Below, one piece after another: positions 32,331-48,524 of a DNA stretch of 64,000 nt. Under the pieces are notes generated by a model. That model was not told where the DNA came from and made no database searches. It saw only the letters and a list, made by a program, of their open reading frames with translations. The first letter of the stretch is position 1. Each line of letters starts with the position of its first letter. Origin of the DNA: an uncultured Gammaproteobacteria bacterium. GTDB taxonomy: Bacteria > Patescibacteriota > Patescibacteriia > Patescibacteriales > UBA12465. The stretch is from the NCBI GenBank assembly GCA_964639785.1, contig CAZXEE010000001.1, positions 179,832 to 243,831 on the forward strand. The letters run 5' to 3'. The position numbers were made by a program, and so were the translations under genes.

Positions 32331-32403
32331 GCGCTGTTAGCTCAGCCGGTAGAGCAGCTCCCTTTTAAGGAGAAGGTCGAAGGTTCGAATCCTTCACGGC
32401 GCA
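32331..32403 (+). tRNA. tRNA-Lys (anticodon UUU)
   Basis: Hand-folded cloverleaf: acceptor GCGCTGT/ACGGCGC, anticodon loop CTTTTAA, T-arm GAAGG-TTCGAAT-CCTTC. CCA not encoded. Confidence 0.9.
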
Positions 32404-32439
32404 CATTAAAAAACAGTCTTATCCAAGGCTGTTTTTTGT

Positions 32440-32468
32440 TTGACAAAAGCCCATTTTTATCTTATACT
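32440..32468 (+). promoter_or_regulatory. Sigma70-type promoter upstream of glmS
   Basis: TTGACA (32440-32445), 17-nt spacer, TATACT (32463-32468). Confidence 0.5.
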
Positions 32469-32515
32469 TCAAGGAATTTCTAGTTCATTTACAAACAATT
32501 TAAAACCTCATAATT

Positions 32516-34348
32516 ATGTGCGGAATAATGTGTTATTGCGGCGGGAAACCCGCCTTGCCTTTATTGTTAACCGGTTTGAGCCGATTGGAATATCGCGGTT
32601 ATGACAGTAGCGGCTTAGTACTTCTGGAATCCGAAAAATTCGTCGTTTATAAAGCGGCAGGAAAACTCGGAAACCTGAAAGCTAAGCTGGAAAATTGTAA
32701 TTCTTCTTCTCGTTTTGGTTTTGCTCACACCCGTTGGGCGACCCACGGCGGAGCGACTGAGACCAATGCCCACCCTCACGTTTCCTACAGCGGGAATCTG
32801 GTAGGTGTCCATAATGGGACGATTGAGAATTACTTGACCCTCAAAAAGAAGCTGGAGAATTCCGGCTTTAACTTCTACAGCCAGACCGATACCGAGGTTC
32901 TGCTTAACTTCATCGAATTCATCCAGAACGAAAAACATCTATCCTTGGTTAATGCTCTGCAGATTGCTTTGTCGGAGGTGGTTGGAACTTGTGTCCTGAT
33001 CATTTATTCCCAGAGCGAAGATTGCTTGGTGGCGATTAACAAGGGCGGCCAGTTATTCGGTGGCCTGGATGGATCGGAATGTTTCATTGCTTCCGACAAA
33101 GTGGCTTTTGCCGGCTTCACGGAGGATTTCTTTGAAATCAAGAGCGACCAGTTATTGGTCTTGGCCAAAGATCAGGAACCGCAACTTCTGAATTCTGATT
33201 TAGGAGAGATGATTCCTTTGTTGGAGAAGATCAATATTGACATCCGTGAGCTTGATCTGGACGGTTTTGATAATTTCATGACTAAGGAAATCTTTTCCCA
33301 GCCCCAGATCGTACGTGACGGTTTGGCTGGCCGGGTTGATTTCCGGAAACGGGATTTCTGCTTCGGCGGCCTGTCGCATTATTGGCCGGAAATCAAGAGT
33401 GCCAAAAGTCTGACTATCGTGGCTTGCGGTACTTCCTGGCATGCCGGCCTCTTGGGTAAGTATTGGTTGGAAAAGCTAGCCAATCTTTCCGTCAAAGTAG
33501 AGTATGCCTCTGAGTTCCAGGCGGGAACTATCGGTCCGGGCGATCTGGTTTTGGGAATTTCCCAATCCGGAACTACGGCTGATACCCTCATTGCTTTAGA
33601 GGCGGCCAAGAAACGCGGCGCGATAATTTTTGGGATCTGTAATGTGGTCGGTTCGGCTATGTCTCGCCTAACTCACGCCGGTATCTATACCAGGGCAGGA
33701 GTAGAAAATGGCGTAGCTTCGACCAAGGCTTTCACTGCCCAGATCTTGGCTTTGTTGCTCCTGTCATTGAAATTGGCCAAGGACAAGAAGACTATCGCGG
33801 CAGCGGAGCTGAAGGAGATTATCAGCCAGCTGAAGATGATGCCCGAGCTTATGGAAAAAATCTTGGCGGAAGAGAAAAGGATTAAGGCTTTGATGTCGAT
33901 GTTCCAGAATTCCGCTAACTGTCTCTATATGGGGCGGGGATACAATTTTCCGGTAGCTCTTGAAGGAGCTCTGAAGCTGAAAGAAATTTCCTATATCCAT
34001 GCCGAAGGTATGCCGGCCGGAGAATCGAAACACGGGCCATTAGCCCTGATCGATGAACATATGCCGGTGGTGGTTGTAGCTACCAAGGGAGAGTTCTATG
34101 GCAAGACCATTAATAACCTGGCGGAGATCAAATCTCGGCAGGCTAAGGTAATCGTTCTGGTCAATGAAGATGATAGTCAGGCAGTGAAACTGGCTGATGA
34201 GGTCATCGTCGTGCCGACCGTCAATGATGTCCTTTCGCCTTTCTTGAACGTTATCCCGCTTCAGCTTCTGGCTTGTCAGGTAGCTTTGGCCCGAGGTTGC
34301 GATGTGGATCGTCCGCGTAATCTGGCTAAGTCAGTGACGGTGGAATAA
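32516..34348 (+). CDS. glmS: Glutamine--fructose-6-phosphate aminotransferase
   Basis: 610 aa. N-terminal MCGI (Cys2 nucleophile), two SIS domains, C-terminal LAKSVTVE. Confidence 0.95.
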   Translation: MCGIMCYCGGKPALPLLLTGLSRLEYRGYDSSGLVLLESEKFVVYKAAGKLGNLKAKLENCNSSSRFGFAHTRWATHGGATETNAHPHVSYSGNLVGVHNGTIENYLTLKKKLENSGFNFYSQTDTEVLLNFIEFIQNEKHLSLVNALQIALSEVVGTCVLIIYSQSEDCLVAINKGGQLFGGLDGSECFIASDKVAFAGFTEDFFEIKSDQLLVLAKDQEPQLLNSDLGEMIPLLEKINIDIRELDLDGFDNFMTKEIFSQPQIVRDGLAGRVDFRKRDFCFGGLSHYWPEIKSAKSLTIVACGTSWHAGLLGKYWLEKLANLSVKVEYASEFQAGTIGPGDLVLGISQSGTTADTLIALEAAKKRGAIIFGICNVVGSAMSRLTHAGIYTRAGVENGVASTKAFTAQILALLLLSLKLAKDKKTIAAAELKEIISQLKMMPELMEKILAEEKRIKALMSMFQNSANCLYMGRGYNFPVALEGALKLKEISYIHAEGMPAGESKHGPLALIDEHMPVVVVATKGEFYGKTINNLAEIKSRQAKVIVLVNEDDSQAVKLADEVIVVPTVNDVLSPFLNVIPLQLLACQVALARGCDVDRPRNLAKSVTVE

Positions 34349-34368
34349 TCGAAGAATCGCATAAAACA

Positions 34369-34400
34369 AAGCCGTTCTCATTGAAGAACGGCTTTTTATT
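34369..34400 (+). terminator. Rho-independent terminator after glmS
   Basis: AAGCCGTTCT-N6-AGAACGGCTT followed by TTTATTTT. Confidence 0.65.
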
Positions 34401-34451
34401 TTATCCCCTAGACAAAAGTCTCCGGATAATTTATTATGAGAAAGTGCTTTG

Positions 34452-34524
34452 GCCGTCTTAGCTCAGCTGGTAGAGCAGCTGTCTTGTAAACAGCAGGTCG
34501 TCGGTTCGAACCCGACAGACGGCT
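34452..34524 (+). tRNA. tRNA-Thr (anticodon UGU)
   Basis: Acceptor GCCGTCT/AGACGGC, anticodon arm GCTGT-CTTGTAA-ACAGC, T-arm GTCGG-TTCGAAC-CCGAC. CCA not encoded. Confidence 0.9.
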
Positions 34525-34539
34525 CATAAGAACAGAAAA

Positions 34540-34565
34540 ATCATTGCTTAGCAATGATTTTTTGT
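34540..34565 (+). terminator. Terminator after tRNA-Thr
   Basis: ATCATTGC-TTA-GCAATGAT followed by a T-run. Confidence 0.6.
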
Positions 34566-34604
34566 TATTGTTTCCGCTTTTATTTTATGATAAAGTCTGC
34601 ATAT

Positions 34605-35852
34605 ATGAAAAATATCAGTTTCAAAATCTACACTTTAGGCTGCAAGGTTAATCAATATGATTCTGGCTGCTTGGAACGGCTATTGCTCCAGGCTGGTTTT
34701 AGCTCGGTTGAGAGCCGGGCTGATCTGGCTATTATCAACACTTGCGCTGTTACCAAGACTGCTATCTTGAAGGATAAGCGGATGGTCAATCTGGCTCGGA
34801 AAGAAAATCCGGGAGCTAAGATTGTAGTGATGGGCTGTTGGCCGAAAGCTTATGAAATCGATGAAGCGGTGGAACTTGTCGGCAAGGGTAAGAAGGTTGA
34901 AGAGACGGCCAAGCTGATTATCAAGATGTGCCAGCCGGAGAAGAAGAGCAGCAGCTTTGATCATGCTGGTTCTTTGGTCTTGTCTCATCAGGAACGTTCC
35001 CGCTATTTCATCAAGATCCAGGATGGCTGCAATCAATTCTGTTCATATTGTATTATTCCATATACTCGAGGCAGGCTGCAGAGCCGGCCTCAGAGCCAGA
35101 TAATTTCTGAGGTTAAAGCAGCTGTAGCGGCTGGCTATCAAGAATTAGTCTTGTCCGGCATCCATTTAGGATTATATGGGCAAGAGAAACCTGGCTCCAA
35201 GATTAATCTGACCGGACTATTGAAAAAGCTGGTTAAGATTAAGGGCTTGGGCCGCTTGCGTCTGAGTTCGATCGAGATTACGGAAGTCACCGACGAGCTG
35301 ATCGCTTTCATGGCCTCGGAACCGAAGATTTGCCGGCATCTGCATATTTCGCTTCAGTCTGGTTCCGACAAGATATTAAAAGCTATGAACCGCCCTTACA
35401 GTACTAGTTATTTCTCGAAGAGAGTCAAGAAATTACGTCAGGCTATGCCGGATATCGCTATCAGCACTGATATCATCGTCGGTTTTCCGGGAGAGACTGA
35501 AGCCGACTTCATCGATACTTATGATTTCTCTCAAGAAATCAACTTCAGCAAGATCCATGTCTTTTCTTTCTCGGCTCACGAGAAGACCCCGGCCGCCAAG
35601 ATGGACGGCAAGGTAAATGGCCAGGACATCAAAGACCGTTCCCGGAGGTTGAGAGAGCTCTCGTCTAGATTAGAATCAGATTACAAAAAAAAGATTTTGC
35701 ATGGCCTTAAAGGAGAAGAGATAGAAGTGATAGTAGAGGGAGAGTATAAAGGAAAATTAAAAGGGAAGACGGAATTCTATTTTGATATTTATTTTGCCGA
35801 CAAGCGGCGGCCCGAATCATTGGTCGGGAAGATTGTGAAGGTTGAATTGTAA
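34605..35852 (+). CDS. mtaB: MiaB-like radical-SAM methylthiotransferase (MtaB-type)
   Basis: FKIYTLGCKVNQYDS, CNQFCSYCIIPYTRGR. ATG 34605 chosen because the track start 34554 lies inside the tRNA terminator. Confidence 0.8.
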   Translation: MKNISFKIYTLGCKVNQYDSGCLERLLLQAGFSSVESRADLAIINTCAVTKTAILKDKRMVNLARKENPGAKIVVMGCWPKAYEIDEAVELVGKGKKVEETAKLIIKMCQPEKKSSSFDHAGSLVLSHQERSRYFIKIQDGCNQFCSYCIIPYTRGRLQSRPQSQIISEVKAAVAAGYQELVLSGIHLGLYGQEKPGSKINLTGLLKKLVKIKGLGRLRLSSIEITEVTDELIAFMASEPKICRHLHISLQSGSDKILKAMNRPYSTSYFSKRVKKLRQAMPDIAISTDIIVGFPGETEADFIDTYDFSQEINFSKIHVFSFSAHEKTPAAKMDGKVNGQDIKDRSRRLRELSSRLESDYKKKILHGLKGEEIEVIVEGEYKGKLKGKTEFYFDIYFADKRRPESLVGKIVKVEL

Positions 35853-35860
35853 AATAAAAA

Positions 35861-35885
35861 AGCTCCAGTTATCTGGAGCTTTTTG
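35861..35885. terminator. Bidirectional terminator (mtaB / T9SS-CTD gene)
   Basis: AGCTCCAG-TTAT-CTGGAGCT with A/T runs. Near-identical copy at 38633-38652. Confidence 0.7.
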
Positions 35886-35904
35886 TTTTTGTTAGGTTTA
35901 AAGC

Positions 35905-38493
35905 TTATTTCTTGATGATCTTGAATATCCAGGTTTCATTCCGGCTATCCGTGATCTTTATGGTGTATACGCCCGATCTGAGATCGGACATATTCAGAGC
36001 TTTCAAGTTGGGGGTTTGTGGTAAGATGGTTTGTCCGTAGATGTCGGTAAAGCTTACACTAACGAGATCTTGTTCGGTCTCGATGTATAAGATGTCGCTA
36101 ACCGGATTAGGATAGAGCCTGAAATCTTTTTCAGAACCGCATCCCTTGGCGGTGATAGGCGGAAAATATTCGAATTTTCCGTCAAAGTCGGTTTGTTTCA
36201 AACGATAGTAGACGGTCTTGTCCGTTTCGTCTGTCAGATAATAGGTGATAGGTTGGCTGCTGTTGCCGCTGCCTTTTACCTTCTTCCAGAAATGCCAGTT
36301 CTTGGCATCATCGCTCTTTTCGATCGTGAAATAATCGTTGTTGGTTTCTGATGCCGTGGTCCAGGATAGGTTTATTGATCCATCATGGCATTCGCCTTTG
36401 AAGGCGGTTAATGTTATTGGCATGAGATTGATCCCGGTCTTAGCCGAGATGAAGAAATCACAGACGTCTCCGGCCCAGCCATCGATCATCAGGTAATAGG
36501 TATTGCCGACGGTCAGTCCGGTAGCGGTTATTATCCCGTCGGTCATGACTCCTGGATTCCAACAATTGGAATAGGAGGTGAAGGTCGAGCAATCCGAGGT
36601 GGCAAAAATTTGCATCTGGATTCCATCACCTTCCGTACAATTGCTAACAAAGATATTCAATGTAGCTGTTGTAGAGTCGGCCACGAATTTCAACCATGAA
36701 TTATTATCTATTGACCCGCAGAACAAACTTTCAAGATTTCCTGGAGTGTCAGCGTCATATGAGGCGCTAGTATTGCTGCAATATCCGTTTAAGTTAGATA
36801 TTAGCGTGGCAATATCGCAGGAATCAGCTGCTGGGTCATTAGTAACGCAAGATGGCGGAGGGGTCGGAGTGGTGATGCATAAGGTGAATCCGGCGGCAGT
36901 TCCAGTGATAGCTGTCGAGCCGTAGGAATAAACCCTGATGTAATAGGTACTCCCGATCGTTAATCCGCCCCATTTGGTGGCTGAAGGGTTGGCGTCATAG
37001 CAGCCGGCACTAGTCAGGCCAGCGCATGATCCAGAAAAGAACTGGGTGTAGAAGTCAGTGCTTCCTTCGGTTGATAAGGTGATTGCATGGCAGGTGTCAG
37101 CCGCTATGAATGAAAACCAGACATCATCGTCAGCAGTCCCTGAACAGGGAGAGACGGCGATATTGGAATTCGTAGCGTTTTCTATCGTGCCATTAGCGCA
37201 GTTTCCGACGGTAATTTGTGTCGCATCAGAACAATCATCATTGCTGGGAGGAAAGACTTCGGCGGCTTCTTTGACACAGATGCCAAAAGTGCCTTCGGCG
37301 TCTCCGCCATATTCCCAGAAACGGATATAGATAGTCGATCCGGGTGTTAATCCGAACTTATCTATCTTCGGCATGGCTCCATTGTCACTGTCGTCGTCAT
37401 CGCATTCAATGGCGGTTAAGCCGCTGCAGGTTCCGGAATATATTTCCATACCCGCATCAGTTATCCCGCCGGTTTGTCCGTCGATGATTACGTGTCCCGT
37501 GCTGGGAACGACGAAGGAAAACCAGACGTCCTTGTATGTACTGCCGGCGCAGGTCGGCAACGGAGTTGTTCCGCTGGCGGTGCATCCAGTGTTGTCATAC
37601 GTGGCATAGTTGCAAGCAGTATCAACCGTCAAGCTGATCGCTCCAGAGCATTCATCATTAGTGATGCAATCACTAGTCGTGAAATTGCTGCTGGTGGCGG
37701 TGCTGGAATTAGTATTATCGCAGCTAGTCTTGGCATAGACTGTAAAGTAATAGCTGCTGCCGCAGGTTAGTCCGATGGCTGTCGTTGAAGTGCTTGTGGT
37801 GTTTCCAGAGGTGACTAGGGTCGCCCCGGAAGTGTACAAGCTCCAGTAATAAGTGACGGTGGCAGAACCGGCTGGCGTACCAGCTGACTATGACAGGTTA
37901 GCGGTCGTAGCCCCAGTTCCTGATCCGGATAAGGTGGTCGGTGTTCCAGGAGTCGTACAGACAATGTGAGATATGAATATATCATCCACGTCTTGATAGA
38001 ACATATTTACGGCCGAATAACAATTCCAGCCGAAGTAATATGTTCTGGTAGTTCCTGGAGTAAAGGTGGTCGTTCTTTGGACATATGACCCTGAAGTAGA
38101 GTGTGATCCCAAATCTTGTAATGTTGTACTTTGTCCAGCTATGGTTTGGGCTGTTCCTACGGTTACTTTTAATTGTTCATTATAAGTACTGCTGGTCTTT
38201 TCCCAGTAGGTGATATTGTAAAGGACCCCCGCCGTTAAGCTGACCCCCGGAGAGATTAGCCAAGCATTAGCTGCTTTAGCGGCATCGAATTTGTATTCTG
38301 CTGCTCCGGTTCCTCCATGGGCGGACCCAGAAGAAACCGTTGTCCAATCATTACCGCTCCCGCCTGCCTTGACGGCAACCCAGCCTGATGGCGGAACTCC
38401 GCTCTCAAAATCTTGCGAAAGCACTGTTTGCGCTTTAATACTGCTAACGATTGCTATTAATAGCAAGATTGTTAGCAACCCCTTCTTTTTCAT
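35905..38493 (-). pseudogene. Large secreted surface protein with T9SS-type C-terminal sorting domain, interrupted by one in-frame TAG (37888-37890)
   Basis: ORFs 37888-38493 (signal peptide + choice-of-anchor-J-like domain) and 35905-37839 are in the same frame, 16 sense codons apart. C-terminus is YPNPVSDILYIE...GVYTIKITD...KIIKK. Confidence 0.75.
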
Positions 38494-38632
38494 TTTTTTC
38501 CTTTCTTTTTGCGTTTTTATTGTTAATGTACTGGGGTTATATTAATATATATTTAATTTTTTATCAATTATAATAAATAGCCAATATTAGCTATTTTTAT
38601 ATAAAAGTTGCTCAAATAAAAAAGCTCCAGTT

Positions 38633-38657
38633 GTCTGGAGCTTTTTGATAACCAGGG
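38633..38657 (-). terminator. Terminator of the 846-aa T9SS-CTD gene
   Basis: AGCTCCAG-TTGT-CTGGAGCT. Differs by 1 nt (in the loop) from the hairpin at 35861-35880. Confidence 0.7.
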
Positions 38658-38664
38658 GATCTTC

Positions 38665-41205
38665 TTATTCCTTGATTATCTTGAAAGTTTTTAGGCTGTC
38701 GGCAGTCTTTATCGACAGATTATATATTCCCGGTCGAAGATTGGAAATATTAATCGTCGGTTGGTTGCCGGTAATCTTTAAGATAGTTTGCCCTAACAAG
38801 TTGGATAATTCCTCCCGCTCGATGGTCATTCCGTCAGTTTCGATATTTAAGATGTCGGAAGTCGGGTTAGGATAGACGCGGATTAAGCCGTTTCCGCCAT
38901 CGCATATCACTGATATAGGCGGGAAGGTCTTAAATTGTCCGTCATAATCGGTTTGGCGTAAGCGATAGTAATGGGTTGAATCGGAATATTCCTGGTCAAC
39001 GTACGAATAGTATAATTGTCTATTGCTGTTTCCGATTCCGGCAATTTTAGTTATCGGTAAATAGTTTATCCCGTCGGGACTTTTTTCAATCGTGAAAAAG
39101 CTATTATTAGTTTCGGTGAAAGTCGACCAACTTAGCATAGTCTTCCCGCCATGGCATTGACCGTCAAAGAAGGCCAAGGATATCGGCAGTCCGGATTTCA
39201 GTTTCACTTCGATGTCATCTACGAATAAATAGAACATATCGGCATCGGAATAAGCATTGAAGCCTATGAAATAGATGCCGTTAGTTGTCGGAGTAAAAAC
39301 ATATGAAGCATCTTGAGGACTGCTCTGGGTGATATTGGGAAAATCCATCAGGACTGTAGTCATTGATGCTGCTGCCGCCGAAGTTCCATAAGCTACTTTT
39401 AATTTTTCAGGGAAAGTAGTTCCGGTGTTACCGTATTTGAAAGTGACCTTGTATTCCGTCCCTCCTTCTAAGATTAGTCCGGGGGTATAGAACCAGGCAT
39501 TGGCGGCATAGGAAGCGTTCCAACGATATTCTAAGGTTTGACTGGTAAAACCATATCCAGGATTATTAGCGGTAATCCAGCTATTTCCAGACCCAATATT
39601 TTGGATCGAAGTGCAGGCTGGGATGGCTGGAATAATAGCTGTTTCGAAATTTTCGGAATAAGGAATGCTTATTGGACCGCAGATATTTACCAGATAGTCT
39701 TCGGTTTCACCATAACCATAAGTCAAACAAGGGGTTAAGCTGGCTCCGGAAAGGTTTTCAACGACGATAATTCTCATCATGGTCGTTCCTGAGACGGCAT
39801 TCGTCGGGACTGTGAAGGTTCCGGAAATTGTCCGTGGGCTGATCGTCGTGCTGTTTTCAACGTATACTTGTTCTCCAGCATCCAGAAACGAGCCGTTATG
39901 GTTGTAGTCTATCCAGATAGCGCAGCCATTGGGATAATAGGTGGCTCCGTCACACTCATTTTCAGCAATGGAAAAAGAGATGGTGCTTCCAATAGAAATC
40001 GTAGTTAATGGCCCTAGGGTTGTGAAGTTTGAATACTTATAAGCCACTGAACCAGCTCCCGGTGCGACCGTGCCGCAAGTGGAGCTATTAGTGATTCCGT
40101 TAATCGTGACGCTATAGATCTCTTCGTCTGCGGTATAATTAGCAGATGAAGAACAATAGCAATTCAGGAAACTATTGATAACCACTTGGGTAGGGGTAGA
40201 ATAAGAACTTAAGCTGCTATTAGTGCAAGTTACTAGACAGCGATAATAGGTGGCCGATGTCTGTGTGGCAGAATAGCTGGAAGCATTTGCTCCGCTGATG
40301 TTGCCATAAGAGACTCCGTCAGCCGAAGATTGCCATTGGTAAGTTGTACCAGGGCTTAAGGCGTTCTGTAATGACAAGCTAAAAGTATTTCCTGGACAGA
40401 CTGAACTTGACGATGCGATTGTGTTTCCTGGATTCGGCGTGCCAGAACAAGAAGTTATACAGGCGATTGTAAAATCAAATCCGCTGTTTTGGATGGATCC
40501 ATCTGAAACGAATCGGACAGTCAGAGCTCCGGTGGCATCAGTAGAGGTGATGGCTCCAATCGAGGTTGAAGATGATGTTGATCCAGTTAATAATATTGCT
40601 CCGCTAGTTCCGACTCCATTGTAAACATAAACATAGTCATAACCGCTTTCGGTGTAGTATGACCCGGTCAGCTGGACGAAGCTTCCGGCGGTGCTAGGGT
40701 AGATTACCGTATAGCCATCGCTTGTAGCTGCATAACTGCTGTTGGGTCCGCCATTGTCATAGATGTGCTCAGAGCAGGTGGTAACCGAGTTACTTCCTGT
40801 CTTGGGCACCGTTACGACGTGCTTGATAGCCGTTGTCCGGCTAGTAGCTGACGTGCCGCAACTGGAATTAGTATTGCAGTGGACATAATATGTCCCGCTG
40901 ACGGTTGCTTTCCAAGTTAATGGCGTGACTCCGGAGGCGATAACTGTCCCATTATACGTACCTTGTCTGACAGTTAAGAAGTCAGTAGCGATGCTACTGG
41001 TTGAGGTGTAGAAGGCTTCGGCCGCTACTGAATTGATAGTGGCGTATTCGGTGGCATATTGGACAGTGCTAATCGTTACGCTAGCTCCTCCCGTCGGGGC
41101 GGTTACTGTTCCGTAGGCGCTAGTGTTAGTGCACTGTGCCCAGGTTTCAATCGGCGAAAAAGCTATTATCAACAATAATAAGCTTACTTTCTTTAACTTT
41201 TTCAT
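38665..41205 (-). CDS. Large secreted surface protein: CUB-like, GEVED-like, choice-of-anchor-J-like domains + T9SS type-A C-terminal sorting domain
   Basis: 846 aa. Signal peptide ...IETWAQ; YGETEDYLVNI; ENFE...NSW...DDIEV; C-terminus VYPNPTSDILNIE...GIYNLSIKT...FKIIKE. Confidence 0.8.
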   Translation of the reverse strand: MKKLKKVSLLLLIIAFSPIETWAQCTNTSAYGTVTAPTGGASVTISTVQYATEYATINSVAAEAFYTSTSSIATDFLTVRQGTYNGTVIASGVTPLTWKATVSGTYYVHCNTNSSCGTSATSRTTAIKHVVTVPKTGSNSVTTCSEHIYDNGGPNSSYAATSDGYTVIYPSTAGSFVQLTGSYYTESGYDYVYVYNGVGTSGAILLTGSTSSSTSIGAITSTDATGALTVRFVSDGSIQNSGFDFTIACITSCSGTPNPGNTIASSSSVCPGNTFSLSLQNALSPGTTYQWQSSADGVSYGNISGANASSYSATQTSATYYRCLVTCTNSSLSSYSTPTQVVINSFLNCYCSSSANYTADEEIYSVTINGITNSSTCGTVAPGAGSVAYKYSNFTTLGPLTTISIGSTISFSIAENECDGATYYPNGCAIWIDYNHNGSFLDAGEQVYVENSTTISPRTISGTFTVPTNAVSGTTMMRIIVVENLSGASLTPCLTYGYGETEDYLVNICGPISIPYSENFETAIIPAIPACTSIQNIGSGNSWITANNPGYGFTSQTLEYRWNASYAANAWFYTPGLILEGGTEYKVTFKYGNTGTTFPEKLKVAYGTSAAAASMTTVLMDFPNITQSSPQDASYVFTPTTNGIYFIGFNAYSDADMFYLFVDDIEVKLKSGLPISLAFFDGQCHGGKTMLSWSTFTETNNSFFTIEKSPDGINYLPITKIAGIGNSNRQLYYSYVDQEYSDSTHYYRLRQTDYDGQFKTFPPISVICDGGNGLIRVYPNPTSDILNIETDGMTIEREELSNLLGQTILKITGNQPTINISNLRPGIYNLSIKTADSLKTFKIIKE

Positions 41206-41312
41206 TGTATTCTTGGTTTTTGTTGTTTGTTAAAGGACGATAATTACTCGGTATAATATTGTCATTAATTTATATTTTTGTCAATTATCTTAATGAAGTG
41301 GGAATACAAAAA

Positions 41313-41336
41313 ACCCGCTATATAAGCGGGTTTTTC
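41313..41336. terminator. Orphan terminator-like hairpin in divergent intergenic region
   Basis: ACCCGC-TATATAA-GCGGGT flanked by A6 and T5. No convergent gene ends here. Confidence 0.4.
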
Positions 41337-41511
41337 TTGTAGTCCTCCGAGAGGAGATATCTAAACATTTAAGCGAAATTATTGAGGAAATTAAGATCTG
41401 GGCGGTGTTTTTTACACTGATAAATTAATATTACTTTTTATAACTAGAAAAGTCAATTAACTTAAAGTCTAAATTTTTTGTTTTAAAACCCAGTTCAAAT
41501 CTGCCCCACTA

Positions 41512-41538
41512 TTGCCGGGGGGGGGGATATGGTATAAT
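41512..41538 (+). promoter_or_regulatory. Putative promoter of the DGR target gene with G10 tract in the spacer
   Basis: TTGCCG (41512-41517), 15-nt spacer that starts with the G-run, extended -10 TGGTATAAT (41530-41538). ATG follows at 41578. Confidence 0.45.
41517..41526 (+). repeat. Homopolymeric G10 tract
   Basis: Read directly: ...attgcc GGGGGGGGGG atatggtataat... Confidence 0.95.
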
Positions 41539-41577
41539 ACGAGTATTAATAAAAGTTAAGTATTAATCTTGTTTTAT

Positions 41578-42678
41578 ATGAAATCTAAAAAAGCCTTCAC
41601 CCTCATCGAGCTCTTAGTAATAATAGCCATCATTGGTATCTTAGTAACTATTTCCGTTTTAGCTCTCAATAATGCTAGGGCTAAATCCCGTGACGCCAAA
41701 AGAGTGGGGAATATGAAACAAGTCCAAACAGCCCTAGAGCTATTCTTTAACGACAAACAAAGATATCCCACCGCTGAAGAATGGAACACTGGAAAAATAT
41801 ATTCCACTACCACCAATTCCACCTCGACCTATATGCAAATAATACCAGTTGCTCCCACCCCTAATGATGGTAATTGTACCACCGATCAAAACGCTATTAA
41901 CTATATCCCTACCTCAGACGGAGCATCCTATTCTATCTCTTTCTGTCTGGGAGGTACTACCGGAACCCTAGCTCCCGGACCAAAATGTTTGACTCCTAGT
42001 GGAATTGTGGATATGGATTGTAGCGCTGGTAGTCCACCAGCTTTTGCTTGTGGTATTAGCCAAGTTACAATTTCTTCTATTGCCGGCCACACTTGTAATA
42101 CTGGCGCCCCAGACTATGACACTTGTACCTATGACACTGTTGATATTAACGGTCAATGCTGGATGAAGCAAAATATGAATATCGGTACTTATGTCACTGG
42201 TGCCACTACCCAAACCAATGACTCTAATTTACAAAAATATTGTTACGGCGATAATACCGGTAATTGTCTAACTGACGGTGGTCTCTATCAATGGGATGAA
42301 GCTATGCAATATTCCGTCACTGAATTAGCTCAAGGCGTTTGCCCCGATGGTTGGCATATCCCCACTGACGCTGAACAAAATACGCTTGACCAATCATTAA
42401 ATGATACTACTTGTGATGCTAATAGAATCGGGCTTGGTTGTGCTAACGCTGGAACGAAATTACAAGTTGGCGGCACTTCTCATTTCGAGGGACTATTAGC
42501 CGGCCTCCGCAGTACCATTGGGTTGTTCTACTATCAGGGGACGCGCGCGGGCTTCTGGTCGTCATCTATGAGCGGGTCTGATGCTTGGGATCGGTACTTG
42601 CGCACCGGCTATGCGACCGTTTTCCGCCTTCATACTGACCGAGCCTTCGGCTATTCTGTGCGTTGTCTTCAGGACTAA
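41578..42678 (+). CDS. DGR variable protein: prepilin-type signal + FISUMP/C-type-lectin-like domain
   Basis: MKSKKAFTLIELLVIIAIIGILV; CWMKQNMNIG, GGLYQW, GVCPDGWHIPT, GYSVRCLQD. The last 59 codons are the VR. ATG 41578 preferred over TTG 41569. Confidence 0.85.
   Translation: MKSKKAFTLIELLVIIAIIGILVTISVLALNNARAKSRDAKRVGNMKQVQTALELFFNDKQRYPTAEEWNTGKIYSTTTNSTSTYMQIIPVAPTPNDGNCTTDQNAINYIPTSDGASYSISFCLGGTTGTLAPGPKCLTPSGIVDMDCSAGSPPAFACGISQVTISSIAGHTCNTGAPDYDTCTYDTVDINGQCWMKQNMNIGTYVTGATTQTNDSNLQKYCYGDNTGNCLTDGGLYQWDEAMQYSVTELAQGVCPDGWHIPTDAEQNTLDQSLNDTTCDANRIGLGCANAGTKLQVGGTSHFEGLLAGLRSTIGLFYYQGTRAGFWSSSMSGSDAWDRYLRTGYATVFRLHTDRAFGYSVRCLQD
42499..42675 (+). repeat. DGR variable region (VR)
   Basis: Gap-free 177-nt match to 43258-43434. 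26 mismatches, 24 at positions where the TR has A. Confidence 0.85.
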
Positions 42679-42705
42679 TTCGACTATTTCGACTATTTTG
42701 ACTAT
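42679..42705 (+). repeat. 3 x 9-bp tandem repeat just after the VR and stop codon
   Basis: TTCGACTAT TTCGACTAT TTTGACTAT, read directly. Confidence 0.9.
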
Positions 42706-42708
42706 TTT

Positions 42709-42732
42709 TCCGCCTCGTGTCAGCGAGGCGGA
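42709..42732 (+). promoter_or_regulatory. GC-rich hairpin downstream of VR (candidate DGR target-site hairpin or weak terminator)
   Basis: TCCGCCTCG-TGTCAG-CGAGGCGGA: 9-bp stem, 6-nt loop. No strong T-run follows. Confidence 0.5.
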
Positions 42733-42749
42733 ATTAATTAAATTTTCCT

Positions 42750-43094
42750 ATGGCTACTTATGATAACTTGCCGGTGTATAAAGCCAGTTATGATTTATTG
42801 TTAGAGATATTCCTTTTCAGCAAAAATATGGATAAGGAATATAAATATACCATTGGGGAAGATTTGAAAAAAGAAACCACGGCTATGATTACCAATATCT
42901 ATCGTGCCAATTGCAATCAGAACAAAAGGGATTTAATCCAAGGTGGTCGGGAAAATTTAGAAGTCATCAGATTATATTTACGCTTAATCAAAGATTTGAA
43001 ACAGATATCTCTATTAAAATTCGTAAAGATTAATGAAATTATTGAATCAATTTCTAAACAATTGAATTTTTGGCAAAATGCCATGAAATCATAA
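42750..43094 (+). CDS. avd: Four-helix-bundle protein, Avd-type DGR accessory variability determinant
   Basis: 114 aa. LPVYKASYDLLLEIF...KEYKYTIGEDLKKE pattern of the 23S-rRNA-IVS/four-helix-bundle family. Lies between the DGR target and the TR. Confidence 0.7.
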   Translation: MATYDNLPVYKASYDLLLEIFLFSKNMDKEYKYTIGEDLKKETTAMITNIYRANCNQNKRDLIQGGRENLEVIRLYLRLIKDLKQISLLKFVKINEIIESISKQLNFWQNAMKS

Positions 43095-43257
43095 TGGGCC
43101 AGAGTCGTCATCGGTTACGGCCATGACGAGTGCGCCTCACTAGTCCAATAATCCACTAAATTTTCTAAATTTAGTAATTGACGGAGCAACCTGTCATTCT
43201 GCTGATTTTTTAGATAATATCAAATCAGCCGAAGAGTTTAGCGATTATTATAAAAGA

Positions 43258-43434
43258 GCCGGCAACCGCAATACCAATGGGTCGTTCAACAATCAGAGGA
43301 CGAACGCGAACTTCTGGTCGTCATCTATGAGCGGGTCTAATGCTTGGAATCGGAACTTGAACACCGGCTATGCGACCGTTAACCGCAATCATAATGACCA
43401 AGCCAACGGCTTTTCTGTGCGTTGTCTTCAGGAC
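43258..43434 (+). repeat. DGR template region (TR)
   Basis: Asn-codon-rich (15 AAY codons) copy of the VR. Non-coding in context; the track ORF 43370.. reads through it spuriously. Confidence 0.85.
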
Positions 43435-43489
43435 TTGTCAAAAGAAGCCATATAACAATAGCTTCTTTTATTTTACTAAAATATTTTTT

Positions 43490-43801
43490 ATGTCCGATAA
43501 ACTTCTTGTTGACCTCTTTCAAGCCTATTACGACGCTCGGCGTTACAAGAGAAATACGATGAGCGCTTTAAATTTTGAAATTAATTTAGAGCATAATCTA
43601 TTTGAGTTATATCAAGAGATAAAAAATGGTACTTATCAAATTAGTCCCAGTCTGGCCTTTATAATTTTCGATCCGGTTCAGCGGGAAATTATCGCCTCTC
43701 CCTTTCGGGATCGAGTCGTTCATCATCTCGTTTTTAATTATATTAATCCTGTTTTAGAAAAACTTTTTATTTCCGACAGTTATAGCTGTCGCCAAAGATA
43801 G
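43490..43801 (+). pseudogene. DGR reverse transcriptase, N-terminal fragment only (~103 aa)
   Basis: MSDKLLVDLFQAYYDARRYKR...PFRDRVVHHLVFNYINP...SDSYSCRQR*. Stops where DGR RTs continue with GKG and the catalytic domains. No RT motifs downstream in any frame. Confidence 0.75.
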
Positions 43802-44342
43802 GCTGGAAAATCAGTTCAGCAATTATATCAAAGAAATATCGCCTGATCCTGATTTTGCTAAAGCCTATCAAAAAATTGTGGTTGAGGAATGGGAAAAGGG
43901 ACTGCAAAATTATAAGGGTAGTATTGTTAATCTCAAGAATGAATTAGATAAACTAGAAATAGAGAAGTCTAAATTAATTGAAATGAAGAAAAAGGATTTG
44001 CTTGACGATGAGGACTTTAAAGAAGAAATGTATAAAGTAAAGATTAAAATAGCCGAAAAGCAGTCTATCCCAGCCGAGAGTATAGCTGATAATTTTGATG
44101 TTAAAAAAGAATCCAAAAAAGTTTTTGATATTATCCCCGACCTCAATAAATTCTATAATGGTCTCGGCTATTACGACAAGCTGAAATTACAGGGTTTGAT
44201 TTTTCCTGAAAAGGTCTATTTTGATTTTTCCGAAAGTCGAACCCCTAAATTGTCGCTAATATTACAAATCAAAAGAGAGCTGGCAACTGCCAGCTCCCCG
44301 AAAGTAGCCTCTAGGGGAATCGAACCCCTGTTACATGGTTGA
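43797..44342 (+). pseudogene. C-terminal remnant of a large serine recombinase-like protein
   Basis: The frame opens at the RT break. K/E-rich coiled coil plus LQGLIFPEKVYFDFSESRTPKLSLILQI tail. No catalytic N-domain. The 3' end reads into tRNA-Glu. Confidence 0.45.
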
Positions 44343-44376
44343 GAACCATGTGTCCTAACCGTTAGACGAAGAGGCC
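44305..44376 (-). tRNA. tRNA-Glu (anticodon CUC)
   Basis: Minus strand GGCCTCT...CATGG-TTCTCAA-CCATG...AGGGG-TTCGATT-CCCCT-AGAGGCT-A. 72 nt, hand-folded. Confidence 0.85.
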
Positions 44377-44381
44377 AGTAT

Positions 44382-45344
44382 CTATTTCAATATATTTCCG
44401 ATGATATTTTGGTTGCCGCGCAAGAAAGAATCGACTTCCATCACTTTGCGTCCTTCAAGCTGTAATTCTACAACAACTAAAGCATTATGTCCACATTGGA
44501 CGGCCAAGGCGCTCTCATAGAGGAATAATTGGCCTACCTTGTACTTGTTGATCTTGAGCGGTTTCGGTCTCACTGCCCATAGTTTAAACAAAACCTGATT
44601 AATTTTCAAGCCCTCATCGCTTAAGTAGCCATAGGCTCCAGGCCAAGGGTTGAAAGCCCGAGTTAGCCTTTCGATTTCTTCGGCGCTATGATGCCAATTG
44701 ATATGGCCGTCTTCTTTCTTGAGCATCTTGACGTAGCTGGCATAGCGGGATCTTTGTTTCTTCGGTTTGACCCGGCCCTTGATATAGCGGACTAAGGTTT
44801 TGAGCAATAATGGAGCGCCTAGTTCAGCTAATTTGTCATGCAGGGAAGAAGCGGTTTCGTCCTTGGCCAAGCGGATCTTCTTTTGGGCTAGGATCGGACC
44901 GGTATCCAAGCCCTCATCCATCTTCATGATGGTTATGCCGCTGAATCTTTCTCCGTTCAATATCGGAGCTTGGATGCAGGCCGCACCGCGGTATTTAGGT
45001 AGAAGGGAGCCATGGACATTAATGCAGCCATATTTTGGAATCCCTAAGATGGAGGCTGGGATGATCTGGCCGTAGGCGGCGACGACTATCAGGTCTGGTT
45101 GCAGTTCTTTGATCAACGCAGCTTCCTGTCTGATTTTTTCAGGTTGGTGGATCTTTAATTGATATCTCTGGGCCACTTTCTTGATAGCTGAAGTCGAGAG
45201 TTCTAAACCACGACCGACTTTTTTGTCCGGTTGGGTAACGACAGCGATAATCTCAAAAAAATCGCTGTTGATCAGCGCTTCTAGGCTGCGGGCTCCGAAT
45301 TCTGGAGTGCCCATGAAGATTGTTCTAATCGGTTTATTTTCCAT
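44382..45344 (-). CDS. fmt: Methionyl-tRNA formyltransferase
   Basis: IRTIFMGTPEFG, INVHGSLLPKYRGAACIQ motifs. Start MENKP (45344) or MISF (45359). Overlaps the end of def. Confidence 0.9.
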   Translation of the reverse strand: MENKPIRTIFMGTPEFGARSLEALINSDFFEIIAVVTQPDKKVGRGLELSTSAIKKVAQRYQLKIHQPEKIRQEAALIKELQPDLIVVAAYGQIIPASILGIPKYGCINVHGSLLPKYRGAACIQAPILNGERFSGITIMKMDEGLDTGPILAQKKIRLAKDETASSLHDKLAELGAPLLLKTLVRYIKGRVKPKKQRSRYASYVKMLKKEDGHINWHHSAEEIERLTRAFNPWPGAYGYLSDEGLKINQVLFKLWAVRPKPLKINKYKVGQLFLYESALAVQCGHNALVVVELQLEGRKVMEVDSFLRGNQNIIGNILK

Positions 45345-45810
45345 GATAAAGCTTATCAATGAATAAGATGCCGTCTAAGTGGTCGGTTTCATGCTGGATG
45401 ATCCGAGCCAGGATATGCTGGGCGGCTATTTTTTGTTTTTTGCCTTTGGCGTCTAAATAGACACACTGGATTTTGCTGTGGCGTTCGACATTCCCAAAAA
45501 TGATATTGCCGTTCTTGTCTAAGACTGATAAGCAGCCCTCTTCATCCACTTCTTTTGACCAAGACTTCTTAGTGATCTGCGGATTGATCATGACCATTAT
45601 CTTCTCATCATCCCGTAGTACTATCAATCTGATGTTCTGTCCTATTTGAGGAGCGGCTAATCCAGCACCATCCTTGATGAGCATAGTTTTTTCCATATCA
45701 GAAATCAGGCTCTGGATCTTAGAGTCGTTGATTTCCTCCATGGTCAGGGGACGGGATTTCTTCCGGAGGGTCGGATTGGGGTGATTAAGGATGGGCAAAA
45801 GCTTGGCCAT
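45334..45810 (-). CDS. def: Peptide deformylase
   Basis: GAGLAAPQIG, EGCLS, QHETDHLDG motifs; 158 aa. Confidence 0.92.
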   Translation of the reverse strand: MAKLLPILNHPNPTLRKKSRPLTMEEINDSKIQSLISDMEKTMLIKDGAGLAAPQIGQNIRLIVLRDDEKIMVMINPQITKKSWSKEVDEEGCLSVLDKNGNIIFGNVERHSKIQCVYLDAKGKKQKIAAQHILARIIQHETDHLDGILFIDKLYHGK

Positions 45811-45813
45811 ATA

Positions 45814-46122
45814 TTATTTGTTTTCTTTTTTTTCTTTTTCTTCTTTCTCTTTTTCCTTGGTTATCTTCTGCAGAGTATCTAGGCTGGCAATAACTTTGAA
45901 AAAATATTGCCATTTGGATCCGGTCTGGCATAATTCCTTGGTTTCATTCATCGCTTTCTCGACGGTATTCTTGTGATAGTCCCGGCAGATCTTAAAAACG
46001 GCTGAGCGCTTGAAGTCTGGGATAGACAGCTCTTTGATAATACGCAAAGCCAGGTCCTGCCATTCATAGGCGGGCGGTTTGACTGTTTTTCTAGATTTTA
46101 AGATGTCAGCCAGATTTTCCAT
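45814..46122 (-). CDS. Hypothetical protein with K/E-rich tail
   Basis: 102-aa ORF tightly packed upstream of def. C-terminus KEKEKEEKEKKENK. Confidence 0.45.
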   Translation of the reverse strand: MENLADILKSRKTVKPPAYEWQDLALRIIKELSIPDFKRSAVFKICRDYHKNTVEKAMNETKELCQTGSKWQYFFKVIASLDTLQKITKEKEKEEKEKKENK

Positions 46123-46129
46123 AATGTGA

Positions 46130-46927: not shown

Positions 46928-46928
46928 A

Positions 46929-48419: not shown

Positions 48420-48480
48420 GTATTTAAAGATTATTTTTATTATCTTTATATTATAATATATTTTTTCGATTTTGGAAAAG

Positions 48481-48512
48481 AAAAACACGCCGGTTTCCAA
48501 TTAGGCGTGCTT
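48481..48512 (-). terminator. Terminator after clpB
   Basis: CACGCC-N12-GGCGTG hairpin with a T-run on the minus strand. Confidence 0.55.
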
Positions 48513-48524
48513 TCCTTTATCTTA

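What the first reader, a model, noticed from the sequence alone, without database searches (positions are those of the whole stretch)
35905..41205. Tandem Bacteroidota-style T9SS cargo proteins in a CPR-like genome
Both large proteins end in a textbook type-A Por/T9SS C-terminal sorting domain (YPNP[VT]SDIL.IE ... G[VI]Y ... [FK]IIK[KE]). Each domain is preceded by the ...LSW.T.SETNN.[YF]FTIEKS.D...YYRLKQTD.DG... module and by choice-of-anchor-J/GEVED/CUB-like domains, all typical of Bacteroidota cargo. T9SS is regarded as restricted to the FCB group and needs an outer membrane. The rest of this window looks like a Patescibacteria genome, which is generally thought to lack one. The genes do not look like a binning artefact. 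They are contiguous with housekeeping genes. The two terminators (35861-35880 and 38633-38652) differ by 1 nt, which points to a local duplication. The 846-aa gene also carries the same 5' leader motif as other native genes (see the leader finding). Possible explanations are horizontal acquisition from a Bacteroidota host or neighbour with the CTD repurposed, or a different taxonomic origin than I infer.
Basis: partly seen in the sequence, partly recalled or inferred. Interest (0 to 1): 0.6.

Follow-up and report, generated by a model that had tools for sequence, protein, structure and literature searches.

The report
Bacteroidota secretion-tagged genes inside a Patescibacteria genome
Two neighbouring genes in an ultra-small Patescibacteria (Falkowbacteria-like) genome encode surface-binding proteins that still carry the export tag of the Bacteroidota type IX secretion system. 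They were almost certainly acquired from Bacteroidota; one is intact behind a native-style promoter and the other is broken by a stop codon.

Summary
Genes at 38665-41205 and 35905-38493 (both on the minus strand) each end in a T9SS type-A sorting domain. They score 38.0 and 38.3 bits on TIGR04183 (cut-off 23) and 42.7 and 43.8 bits on PF18962 (cut-off 27). Each tag follows an Fn3-like module and GEVED, choice-of-anchor-J or GBD_T9SS_assoc domains.

The host is a Patescibacterium. GatB is 82-85% identical to Candidatus Falkowbacteria, and both flanks are syntenic with Patescibacteria MAG contigs.

This is not a chimera. The same junctions occur in a second sample (SRR16642448). All named homologues of both proteins are Bacteroidota (27-65% identity over partial lengths), and contigs of three of the closest look Bacteroidota-like. 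Related CPR loci lack the genes. Their codon usage includes the two most atypical values in the window.

The second gene carries an in-frame TAG at 37888-37890, and the related strain has a different TGG-to-TAG mutation. The two genes are only 42% identical at their C-termini, so the near-identical terminators do not show a recent duplication.

Gene 1 has a sigma-70-like promoter. Its leader shares an exact 13-mer with a native gene, at the same distance from the start codon.

Most likely reading: horizontal transfer, Sec-only export, and a vestigial tag. Whether the rest of the genome lacks a T9SS could not be tested.

The parts
38665..41205 (-). cargo1: intact 846-aa gene. Domain order: signal peptide, CUB-like and Ig_7-like regions (both below cut-off), GEVED, choice-of-anchor-J-like region, Fn3-like module, T9SS type-A CTD.
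   Evidence: It is 99.7% identical (7 nt differences) in the related strain L002.
41137..41205 (-). cargo1 signal peptide, MKKLKKVSLLLLIIAFSPIETWA|Q. The inferred cleavage exposes an N-terminal Gln.
   Evidence: Read directly from the translation; no predictor was run. The Bacteroidetes Q-rule comes from PMC5837995. This is weak evidence, because native gene 15005-15844 also shows A|Q.
39685..39921 (-). cargo1 GEVED domain (residues 429-507)
   Evidence: PF20009, 72.1 bits against a cut-off of 24.4
38908..39189 (-). cargo1 Fn3-like pre-CTD module (LSWST.TETNN.FFTIEKS...YYRLRQTDYDG)
   Evidence: Alignment A1. AF2 model with pLDDT 89.9 shows two beta-sandwiches. Local HMM score 126.7 bits.
38668..38877 (-). 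cargo1 T9SS type-A C-terminal sorting domain (residues 777-846: YPNPTSDIL...PGIY...FKIIKE)
   Evidence: PF18962 42.7 bits and TIGR04183 38.0 bits. The A1 profile matches solved T9SS CTDs 8glk_D, 8glj_D and 8qb1_A.
41206..41330 (-). cargo1 promoter and leader. It holds a -35 TTGACA (starting at 41284), an 18-nt spacer, AATATT, and the leader 13-mer TATCGTCCTTTAA at 41230-41242. An upstream hairpin lies at about 41300-41330.
   Evidence: No Bacteroidota-type TAnnTTTG motif is present.
35905..38493 (-). cargo2: an 863-codon reading frame interrupted by one in-frame TAG. Domain order: signal peptide, choice-of-anchor J, fn3-like region, GBD_T9SS_assoc domains (two stretches matched), Fn3-like module, T9SS type-A CTD. 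Probably a recent pseudogene.
37888..37890 (-). In-frame TAG in cargo2. The same codon is TGG (Trp) in related strain L002. L002 has its own TGG-to-TAG at the codon corresponding to window 38203-38205.
   Evidence: TAG ends 7 of 51 native genes.
37972..38424 (-). cargo2 choice-of-anchor J / cleaved-adhesin-like domain
   Evidence: NF038128 58.4 bits (cut-off 30) and PF07675 37 bits
37387..37662 (-). Best-scoring GBD_T9SS_assoc (galactose-binding-like) domain of cargo2. Further Cys-rich regions extend to about 36500.
   Evidence: PF23759 53.9 bits, two stretches
35908..36117 (-). cargo2 T9SS type-A C-terminal sorting domain (YPNPVSDIL...SGVY...FKIIKK)
   Evidence: PF18962 43.8 bits and TIGR04183 38.3 bits. 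Local HMM score 72.5 bits.
38619..38646 (-). Intrinsic terminator after cargo1 (AAAAAGCTCCAGACAACTGGAGCTTTTT followed by a T-run)
35857..35884 (.). Bidirectional intrinsic terminator between the convergent genes cargo2 and MtaB. It shares 33 of 34 nt with the cargo1 terminator.
   Evidence: L002 carries a stem mutation in it.
38539..38567 (-). cargo2 sigma-70-like promoter (TTGATA, 17-nt spacer, TAATAT)

Best explanation
A 5.5-kb stretch (about 35853-41330) in a Falkowbacteria-like Patescibacteria chromosome holds two genes acquired horizontally from Bacteroidota. In the donor they were two-step cargo: Sec carried them across the inner membrane, and the C-terminal domain then carried them through the T9SS across the outer membrane.

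In the recipient, which is presumed to have a single membrane, the N-terminal signal peptide alone should place the protein outside the cell (inferred). The CTD would then be a vestigial, uncleaved beta-sandwich.

Cargo1 is intact. It has been fitted with a native-type sigma-70-like promoter and leader and has a terminator. It most likely acts as a secreted or surface-exposed binding protein or adhesin, because it contains GEVED, CUB-like and choice-of-anchor-J-like modules and no recognisable enzyme domain.

Cargo2 evolved under purifying selection until recently. It is now being lost, with different nonsense mutations in two strains.

Shown here: the identity of the domains, the CPR host, genuine contiguity, Bacteroidota affinity, atypical codon usage, absence from relatives, and the nonsense mutations.

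Inferred: Sec-only export, a vestigial CTD, and the adhesin role.
For: - **Domain identity.** The CTD and cargo domains score above curated cut-offs. All conserved CTD positions are kept relative to 24 Bacteroidota homologues. The profile hits solved T9SS CTDs.
- **CPR host.** GatB is 82-85% identical to Falkowbacteria. Synteny with Patescibacteria MAG contigs is seen on the left side (MurA, L21, RecR, DnaB, GlmS, MtaB) and on the right side (pilin, Avd, RT).
- **Contiguity.** The Logan contig L001 is 100% identical over 16.6 kb. L002, from a different run, keeps the order pilin / cargo1 / cargo2 / MtaB.
- **Donor.** Every named homologue of both proteins is Bacteroidota, apart from one record labelled Rhizobacter and one labelled only 'bacterium'. 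Contigs of three of the closest homologues carry SprB, CHU_C, Por_Secre_tail or RHS-repeat genes.
- **Foreignness.** Synonymous codon usage z-scores are -6.07 (cargo1) and -6.38 (cargo2 N-terminal part). These are the two most extreme of 54 genes.
- **Recency.** No copy is present in the related CPR loci L003-L005 and L183-L185. Nothing above 59% identity lies outside the gene's own cluster.
- **Domestication.** Both genes have AATTGA(C/T)AAAA -35 elements like native genes and lack the TAnnTTTG motif. The cargo1 leader shares an exact 13-mer with native gene 14078-14872, at the same 24-nt distance from the ATG.
- **Past constraint.** The 3' part of cargo2 shows 22 synonymous against 9 non-synonymous changes, dN/dS 0.11. 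MtaB gives 0.08.
- **Current decay.** In-frame TAG codons sit at different Trp codons in the two strains.
Against: - Constraint on cargo1 cannot be shown. The two strains differ at only 7 nt (2 synonymous, 5 non-synonymous), so cargo1 could also be a young relic.
- The CTD is fully conserved rather than eroded. That fits either a recent arrival or retained function.
- Absence of T9SS and outer-membrane genes was checked only for the window genes that were scanned.
- No signal-peptide predictor, expression data or proteomics were available.
- No donor closer than about 59% identity (partial) for cargo1, or about 35-45% for cargo2, was found. The direction and timing of transfer therefore rest on taxonomic distribution, not on a phylogenetic tree.
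Confidence: 0.62

Rival explanations
1. Both genes are non-functional relics of a recent transfer. Cargo1 is simply not yet broken, and neither protein matters to the cell.
For: - Cargo2 carries independent nonsense mutations in both strains.
- The N-terminal domain of cargo2 shows 0 synonymous against 7 non-synonymous changes.
- Cargo1 shows 2 synonymous against 5 non-synonymous changes.
- Codon usage has not adapted to the host.
- No other CPR carrier was found.
Against: - Cargo1 is an uninterrupted 846-codon ORF in two strains.
- It has a native-type promoter and leader, including an exact 13-mer shared with a native gene at the same spacing, and a clean terminator.
- The 3' part of cargo2 evolved with dN/dS 0.11, so this gene type was maintained for some time.
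- The 3.6-kb cargo1 segment is far more similar between strains (dS 0.003) than neighbouring MtaB (dS 0.14). This suggests recent spread within the population.
Confidence: 0.24
2. The CTD is still used. The epibiont displays Bacteroidota-type cargo whose CTD is recognised by a Bacteroidota host's surface T9SS components (PorV, or the PorU/PorZ attachment complex). That recognition would dock or anchor the epibiont to the host. Alternatively, an unknown CPR sorting system reads the tag.
For: - All CTD consensus positions are retained in both genes.
- The donor phylum is the only one with the matching machinery (PMC12421860 and PMC12398890, abstracts).
- The genes lie next to pilin-FISUMP DGR targets of the kind associated with surface recognition.
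Against: - There is no direct evidence.
- The host of this lineage is unknown.
- Conservation of the CTD is equally explained by a recent arrival.
- One of the two genes is being lost.
- No such mechanism turned up in the literature searches.
Confidence: 0.07
3. Assembly or binning artefact: a Bacteroidota fragment was wrongly joined into a CPR contig.
For: Codon usage is atypical, and all homologues are Bacteroidota.
Against: - The island is internal to a 546,729-bp contig.
- Both junctions are reproduced in a contig of a different sequencing run that carries its own SNPs.
- The promoter and leader are of the host's type.
- The terminator at 35857-35884 lies between cargo2 and the convergent native gene MtaB and reads as a terminator on both strands.
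Confidence: 0.03
4. The organism is not a typical Patescibacterium. It has an outer membrane and a T9SS, or it belongs to the FCB group, so these are ordinary cargo genes.
For: Most of the genome (about 483 kb of the contig, plus any other contigs) could not be inspected.
Against: - GatB, MurA, DnaB, L21, RecR, GlmS and MtaB all find Falkowbacteria or Patescibacteria as their nearest relatives.
- The window genes that were scanned returned no T9SS or outer-membrane family.
- A genome of roughly 0.5-1 Mb leaves little room for more than 15 T9SS genes plus BAM and LPS pathways. This last point rests on established knowledge and was not tested here.
Confidence: 0.02

Closest known systems
Bacteroidota T9SS type-A CTD cargo proteins (TIGR04183 / PF18962), in particular GEVED, choice-of-anchor-J and GBD_T9SS_assoc multidomain surface proteins of Chitinophagaceae, Crocinitomicaceae, Saprospiraceae and Cytophagales
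   Same: - Same C-terminal sorting domain, scoring above the curated cut-offs.
- Same YPNP, GxY and KIIK positions.
- Same Fn3-like pre-CTD module.
- Same passenger domains.
- N-terminal signal peptide with Gln after the inferred cleavage site.

   Different: - Encoded in a Falkowbacteria-like Patescibacteria chromosome. That phylum is regarded as having neither an outer membrane nor a T9SS.
- Driven by sigma-70-type -35/-10 promoters rather than the Bacteroidota TAnnTTTG type.
- One copy is disrupted by a nonsense mutation.
- The nearest homologues are only 35-59% identical.
Solved T9SS CTDs (F. johnsoniae substrates in 8GLJ/8GLK, mirolase CTD 8QB1)
   Same: The profile of the window CTDs plus homologues matches them at E-values from 1e-10 to 1e-5 over the whole domain. 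The model is an all-beta sandwich.
   Different: Nothing shows that the window proteins ever meet a translocon. The Foldseek search on the two-domain model returned mostly generic tandem Fn3 hits.
Inter-phylum horizontal gene transfer into CPR genomes (a general phenomenon)
   Same: A small island with atypical codon usage, absent from sister genomes, sitting in a variable region next to another exchanged cassette, the DGR.
   Different: The transferred genes carry a sorting signal for a secretion system the recipient is not expected to have. I found no description of this in the searched literature.

Membership tests
T9SS type-A C-terminal sorting domain (TIGR04183 / PF18962) | HMM score above the curated cut-off | tested here: met
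   TIGR04183 scores 38.0 and 38.3 bits (cut-off 23). PF18962 scores 42.7 and 43.8 bits (cut-off 27)..
T9SS type-A C-terminal sorting domain (TIGR04183 / PF18962) | Domain lies at the extreme C-terminus and keeps the conserved PNP, GxY and K-I-I-K positions | tested here: met
   The domains cover residues 777-846 of 846 in cargo1 and the last 70 residues of cargo2. P123, N124, P125, G170 and Y172 are kept in alignment A1.
T9SS type-A C-terminal sorting domain (TIGR04183 / PF18962) | Beta-sandwich fold related to solved CTDs | tested here: met
   The AF2 model has pLDDT 89.9 and is all-beta. The profile hits 8glk_D, 8glj_D and 8qb1_A. Foldseek gave generic Fn3 tandems plus PorU.
Functional T9SS cargo | N-terminal Sec signal peptide | tested here: met
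   Read directly from the sequence: a Lys-rich n-region, a hydrophobic core, then TWA|Q and IKA|Q. No predictor was run.
Functional T9SS cargo | T9SS machinery (GldK/L/M/N, SprA/Sov, PorV, PorU, and so on) and an outer membrane encoded by the same genome | not testable with these tools
   Only this window was available. About 40 of its roughly 52 genes were scanned, and none gave a T9SS or outer-membrane family. The 546.7-kb source contig could not be retrieved.
Functional T9SS cargo | CTD cleaved and protein released or anchored after translocation | not testable with these tools
   Needs proteomics.
Functional T9SS cargo | Intact open reading frame | tested here: inconclusive
   Cargo1 is intact in two strains. 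Cargo2 has an in-frame TAG in each strain, at different codons.
choice-of-anchor J domain (NF038128) | HMM score above the cut-off | tested here: met
   The N-terminal part of cargo2 scores 58.4 bits (cut-off 30). In cargo1, residues 517-694 are 35% identical to this domain, but NCBIfam did not report it.
GEVED domain (PF20009) | HMM score above the cut-off | tested here: met
   Cargo1 scores 72.1 bits (cut-off 24.4).
CUB domain (PF00431) | HMM score above the cut-off | tested here: not met
   17.1 bits against a cut-off of 21.4. 'CUB-like' is a resemblance only.
Patescibacteria / Candidatus Falkowbacteria (host genome) | Housekeeping genes on both sides of the island find CPR genomes as nearest relatives and are syntenic with them | tested here: met
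   GatB is 82-85% identical to Falkowbacteria. Against L003 (Patescibacteria RA.bin4), DnaB is 87%, MurA 88%, L21 82% and RecR 76% identical. Against L004 (Falkowbacteria ELA342), GlmS is 71% and MtaB 76% identical. On the right side, the pilin/Avd/RT stretch is 95% identical to L003.

The most novel reading that the evidence does not exclude
A Patescibacteria epibiont keeps an intact T9SS sorting tag on a stolen Bacteroidota adhesin because the tag is read by the host's own surface T9SS components (PorV shuttle, PorU/PorZ attachment complex). The parasite's protein would then dock to, or become covalently anchored on, a Bacteroidota host cell. This would be molecular mimicry of host cargo used as an attachment mechanism.
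Probability: 0.05. Interest if true: 0.85.

Novelty: new member of a known kind. Interest (0 to 1): 0.45.

Why it matters
The T9SS and its CTD tag are treated as markers of the FCB superphylum (PMC12421860 and PMC12398890, abstracts). This is a verified case of CTD-tagged genes sitting natively in a CPR chromosome, not a binning artefact.

- **Annotation.** CTD hits alone should not be used to infer a T9SS, or to flag contamination, in MAGs.
- **Evolution.** The case shows what can happen to two-step diderm cargo after it lands in a presumed single-membrane cell. One copy has been rewired to a native promoter and the other is being lost.
- **Ecology.** It points to physical proximity between this Falkowbacteria lineage and Bacteroidota. 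That gives a testable lead to its unknown host.

If the tag were still used, the result would be much more significant. Nothing here shows that.

Tried and rejected
- **Source genome.** I tried to retrieve the 546.7-kb NCBI source contig to scan for T9SS genes. Exact look-ups returned only Logan contigs, or nothing.
- **Genome-contig scan with MtaB.** The source genome is not among the species representatives. The scan still gave useful CPR relatives (L003-L005), but 77 of the 80 loci were other phyla, mostly Firmicutes.
- **Metagenome-contig scan with cargo1.** No close relatives appeared, only matches at 53% identity or less. Four Hainich 0.1-um contigs (GC 25-27%) carry module+CTD-like proteins, but their taxon could not be resolved.
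- **Viral-contig scans with both cargos.** These found only distant relatives (34-47% identity). There is no evidence of a phage vector. PHROGs gave nothing useful for the small ORFs next to the best cargo1 homologue, P0007.
- **Donor for the divergent patch.** I searched all fetched DNA for a donor of the 200-nt divergent patch in cargo2 and found none.
- **TAG read-through or recoding.** Rejected, because TAG ends 7 of 51 native genes.
- **Recent tandem duplication as the source of the two genes.** Rejected. The C-terminal 200 aa are 42.5% identical, and each gene has different nearest homologues.
- **Origin of genes 14078 and 15005.** I tested whether these signal-peptide genes are also Bacteroidota imports. 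They are not. Their small family sits in CPR synteny.
- **Foldseek on the two-domain C-terminal model.** It returned generic Fn3 tandems and added little beyond the HMM evidence.
- **Literature.** I found no paper on T9SS CTDs in CPR or Patescibacteria.

Full report
**What is there.**
Two minus-strand genes fill 35905-41205.

Cargo1 (38665-41205, 846 aa) has an N-terminal signal peptide. Its GEVED domain scores 72.1 bits on PF20009. Its T9SS type-A sorting domain lies at the extreme C-terminus and scores 42.7 bits on PF18962 (cut-off 27) and 38.0 bits on TIGR04183 (cut-off 23). The CUB and Ig_7 matches fall below threshold.

Cargo2 (35905-38493) reads as 863 codons in one frame:
- a signal peptide;
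- a choice-of-anchor J domain (NF038128, 58.4 bits);
- an fn3-like stretch;
- GBD_T9SS_assoc domains (53.9 bits);
- the same pre-CTD module as cargo1;
- a CTD scoring 43.8 bits on PF18962 and 38.3 bits on TIGR04183.

Codon 202 of cargo2 is TAG, at 37888-37890. TAG is an ordinary stop codon here, ending 7 of 51 genes. As assembled, the gene is therefore split into 201 aa and about 659 aa.

I aligned the last 190-200 residues of both proteins with 24 Bacteroidota homologues. All conserved positions are kept (LP, W, SE.NN, YYRL.Q.D, PNP, G.Y, KIIK). An AlphaFold model of this region has pLDDT 89.9 and forms two beta-sandwiches. The alignment profile matches solved T9SS CTDs 8GLK, 8GLJ and 8QB1. 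A local HMM finds no further CTD in the window.

**Whose genome it is.**
GatB (12489-14003) is 82-85% identical to proteins labelled Candidatus Falkowbacteria. The next hits, at about 65%, are labelled Patescibacteria group.

A scan of species-representative genomes with MtaB returned two useful relatives. One is a Patescibacteria MAG contig (L003, MtaB 67%). The other is a Falkowbacteria MAG contig (L004, MtaB 76%, GlmS 71%). L003 also carries MurA (88%), L21 (82%), RecR (76%) and DnaB (87%) in the same order as the window.

The rest of the window holds typical CPR content:
- three pilin-FISUMP genes;
- a DGR;
- YceG, ClpB and Pgk;
- no T9SS or outer-membrane family among the roughly 40 genes scanned.

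**It is not an artefact.**
The identical protein is recorded on a 546,729-bp NCBI contig. A Logan assembly of SRR8925725 gives a 16.6-kb contig that is 100% identical to 32376-49014.

A contig from a different run (SRR16642448, L002, 8.2 kb) has the same order, pilin / cargo1 / cargo2 / MtaB, with its own SNPs.

**Where the genes came from.**
Every homologue of either protein that carries an informative organism name is Bacteroidota. One record is labelled Rhizobacter and one only 'bacterium'. The named taxa include Chitinophagaceae, Crocinitomicaceae, Saprospiraceae, Dyadobacter, Bacteroidales and Flavobacteriales.

BLASTP identity among the listed hits ranges from 27 to 65% over partial lengths. 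The best hit for cargo1 is 59% over 414 aa. Cargo2 hits are typically 35-45%.

Contigs of three close homologues hold SprB, CHU_C, Por_Secre_tail, RHS-repeat or succinate dehydrogenase genes.

Related CPR loci have no copy. In L003 the space between MtaB and the pilin/DGR cassette holds five unrelated genes. The CTD and module HMMs find nothing in L003-L005 or L183-L185.

I scored synonymous codon usage against the other genes of the window. The z-scores are -6.07 for cargo1 and -6.38 for the N-terminal part of cargo2. These are the two most extreme of 54 genes. The C-terminal part of cargo2 scores -3.19.

Both signal peptides expose Gln after the inferred cleavage site. This is the Bacteroidetes 'Q-rule' (PMC5837995). 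The evidence is weak, because native gene 15005-15844 does the same.

**Signs of domestication and of decay.**
Both genes have sigma-70-like promoters:
- cargo1: TTGACA, 18-nt spacer, AATATT;
- cargo2: TTGATA, 17-nt spacer, TAATAT.

The AATTGA(C/T)AAAA -35 context is the one seen upstream of native genes 14078 and 15005. Neither upstream region has a Bacteroidota-type TAnnTTTG motif.

The cargo1 leader contains TATCGTCCTTTAA. This exact 13-mer occurs only twice in the window. The second copy is in the leader of 14078-14872, and both copies end 24 nt before the ATG. That gene family is native to CPR. A homologue sits within MurA-L21-RecR-DnaB...Def-Memo-ClpB synteny.

I then compared the window with L002:

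| Segment | Synonymous / non-synonymous changes | dS | dN/dS |
|---|---|---|---|
| cargo1 | 2 / 5 (7 nt in total) | 0.003 | not informative |
| cargo2, N-terminal domain | 0 / 7 (including L002's own TGG-to-TAG at codon 97) | - | - |
| cargo2, patch 37732-37932 | about 35% divergent, no indels | saturated | - |
| cargo2, 3' part | 22 / 9 | 0.056 | 0.11 |
| MtaB | 34 / 11 | 0.14 | 0.08 |

So cargo2 was under purifying selection and has been knocked out independently in both strains. Cargo1 is too similar between the strains to test. Its segment appears to have spread recently within the population.

**The terminators.**
The 34-nt repeats at 35852-35885 and 38614-38647 differ at one base. They are the only copies in the window and are found in none of the 178 loci from other organisms.

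The adjacent C-terminal 200 aa are only 42.5% identical, and each gene has different nearest homologues. The terminators therefore do not date a recent duplication of the genes. Gene conversion, or recruitment of a short element, is more likely. This remains unexplained.

**How it most likely works.**
In a cell with a single membrane, Sec export alone places a protein outside the cell. A two-step diderm cargo therefore becomes a one-step secreted protein, and the CTD has no machinery to engage.

The passenger domains (GEVED, choice-of-anchor J / cleaved-adhesin-like, galactose-binding-like, Fn3-like) are binding modules without a recognisable catalytic domain. An adhesin or glycan-binding role is the best guess.

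These steps are inferences. They rest on the established view that Patescibacteria lack an outer membrane and that the T9SS is confined to the FCB superphylum (PMC12421860 and PMC12398890, abstracts). I could not scan the rest of the genome.

**Comparison with known systems and novelty.**
By every sequence test, the proteins are members of the T9SS type-A CTD cargo family. They cannot be called functional T9SS cargo, because the machinery criterion is untestable here.

I found no paper describing CTD-tagged proteins in CPR. I rate this a new member of a known kind in an unexpected host, a well-supported inter-phylum transfer. Interest is moderate at 0.45.

The most novel reading not excluded is that the tag is read by a Bacteroidota host's T9SS surface components as an attachment trick. 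I put that at about 5%.

Noticed in passing
window 41331-43834 (also L003 17134-19605): A diversity-generating retroelement lies directly upstream of cargo1. Its parts are the pilin-FISUMP target gene (41569-42678, variable region 42498-42676), Avd (42750-43094), the template repeat (43257-43435) and a reverse transcriptase. The reverse transcriptase is cut to about 155 of 443 aa. The stretch 41331-43794 is 95.4% identical to a Patescibacteria MAG whose housekeeping genes are only 70-80% identical. The cassette therefore seems to have been exchanged recently between lineages, and it is probably inactive here.
   Followed up: partly
window 41515-41524: A G10 homopolymer sits between the -35-like TTGCCG and the -10 TATAAT of the pilin-FISUMP gene. 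The near-identical cassette in L003 has G12. A length-variable spacer tract of this kind is the classic layout of a phase-variable promoter.
   Followed up: partly
window 37732-37932 (cargo2, fn3-like stretch): A 200-nt patch is about 35% divergent from the related strain L002. It has no indels and sits between flanks that are about 99% identical (70 mismatches in 200 nt). It looks like a gene-conversion or recombination patch. No donor was found in any fetched sequence.
   Followed up: partly
window 37888-37890 and 38203-38205: The two strains each carry one TGG-to-TAG nonsense mutation in cargo2, at different Trp codons. This points to independent inactivation of the same gene.
   Followed up: yes
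window 41230-41242 and 14897-14909 (both on the minus strand): The exact 13-mer TATCGTCCTTTAA occurs only in the 5' leaders of cargo1 and of native gene 14078-14872. Each copy is 24 nt upstream of the ATG and downstream of an AATTGACAAA -35 element. Its function is unknown. It contains an anti-Shine-Dalgarno-like TCCTTT.
   Followed up: partly
window 14078-14872 and 15005-15844: Two paralogous signal-peptide proteins have no Pfam, NCBIfam or PHROG match. They belong to a very small family, with 12 representatives among 1.84 billion proteins. The family is found in syntenic CPR contigs.
   Followed up: partly
L003 12647-13666 (minus strand): In the sister genome, the position where the window has the cargo genes holds a 339-aa ORF. 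It has a signal peptide (..WG|Q) and a C-terminal ...LIVRY, which gives it the look of an outer-membrane beta-barrel. It has no Pfam match. Not examined further.
   Followed up: no
L141, L150, L172, L173 (Hainich groundwater, 0.1-um fraction): These contigs have very low GC (25-27%) and many small ORFs. They encode proteins with the pre-CTD module and a CTD-like end (..GIYI.Y...F.K). Whether they are phage, CPR or tiny Bacteroidota was not resolved.
   Followed up: no
window, all genes: Stop-codon usage is strongly skewed: TAA 43, TAG 7, TGA 1 of 51 genes. Most genes lack a Shine-Dalgarno sequence.
   Followed up: no
window 10142-11278 and 11300-12487: Two more pilin (N-methyl) plus FISUMP-domain genes lie in tandem. 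They are 32-36% identical to the DGR target gene and also have atypical codon usage (z -3.3 and -3.7).
   Followed up: no
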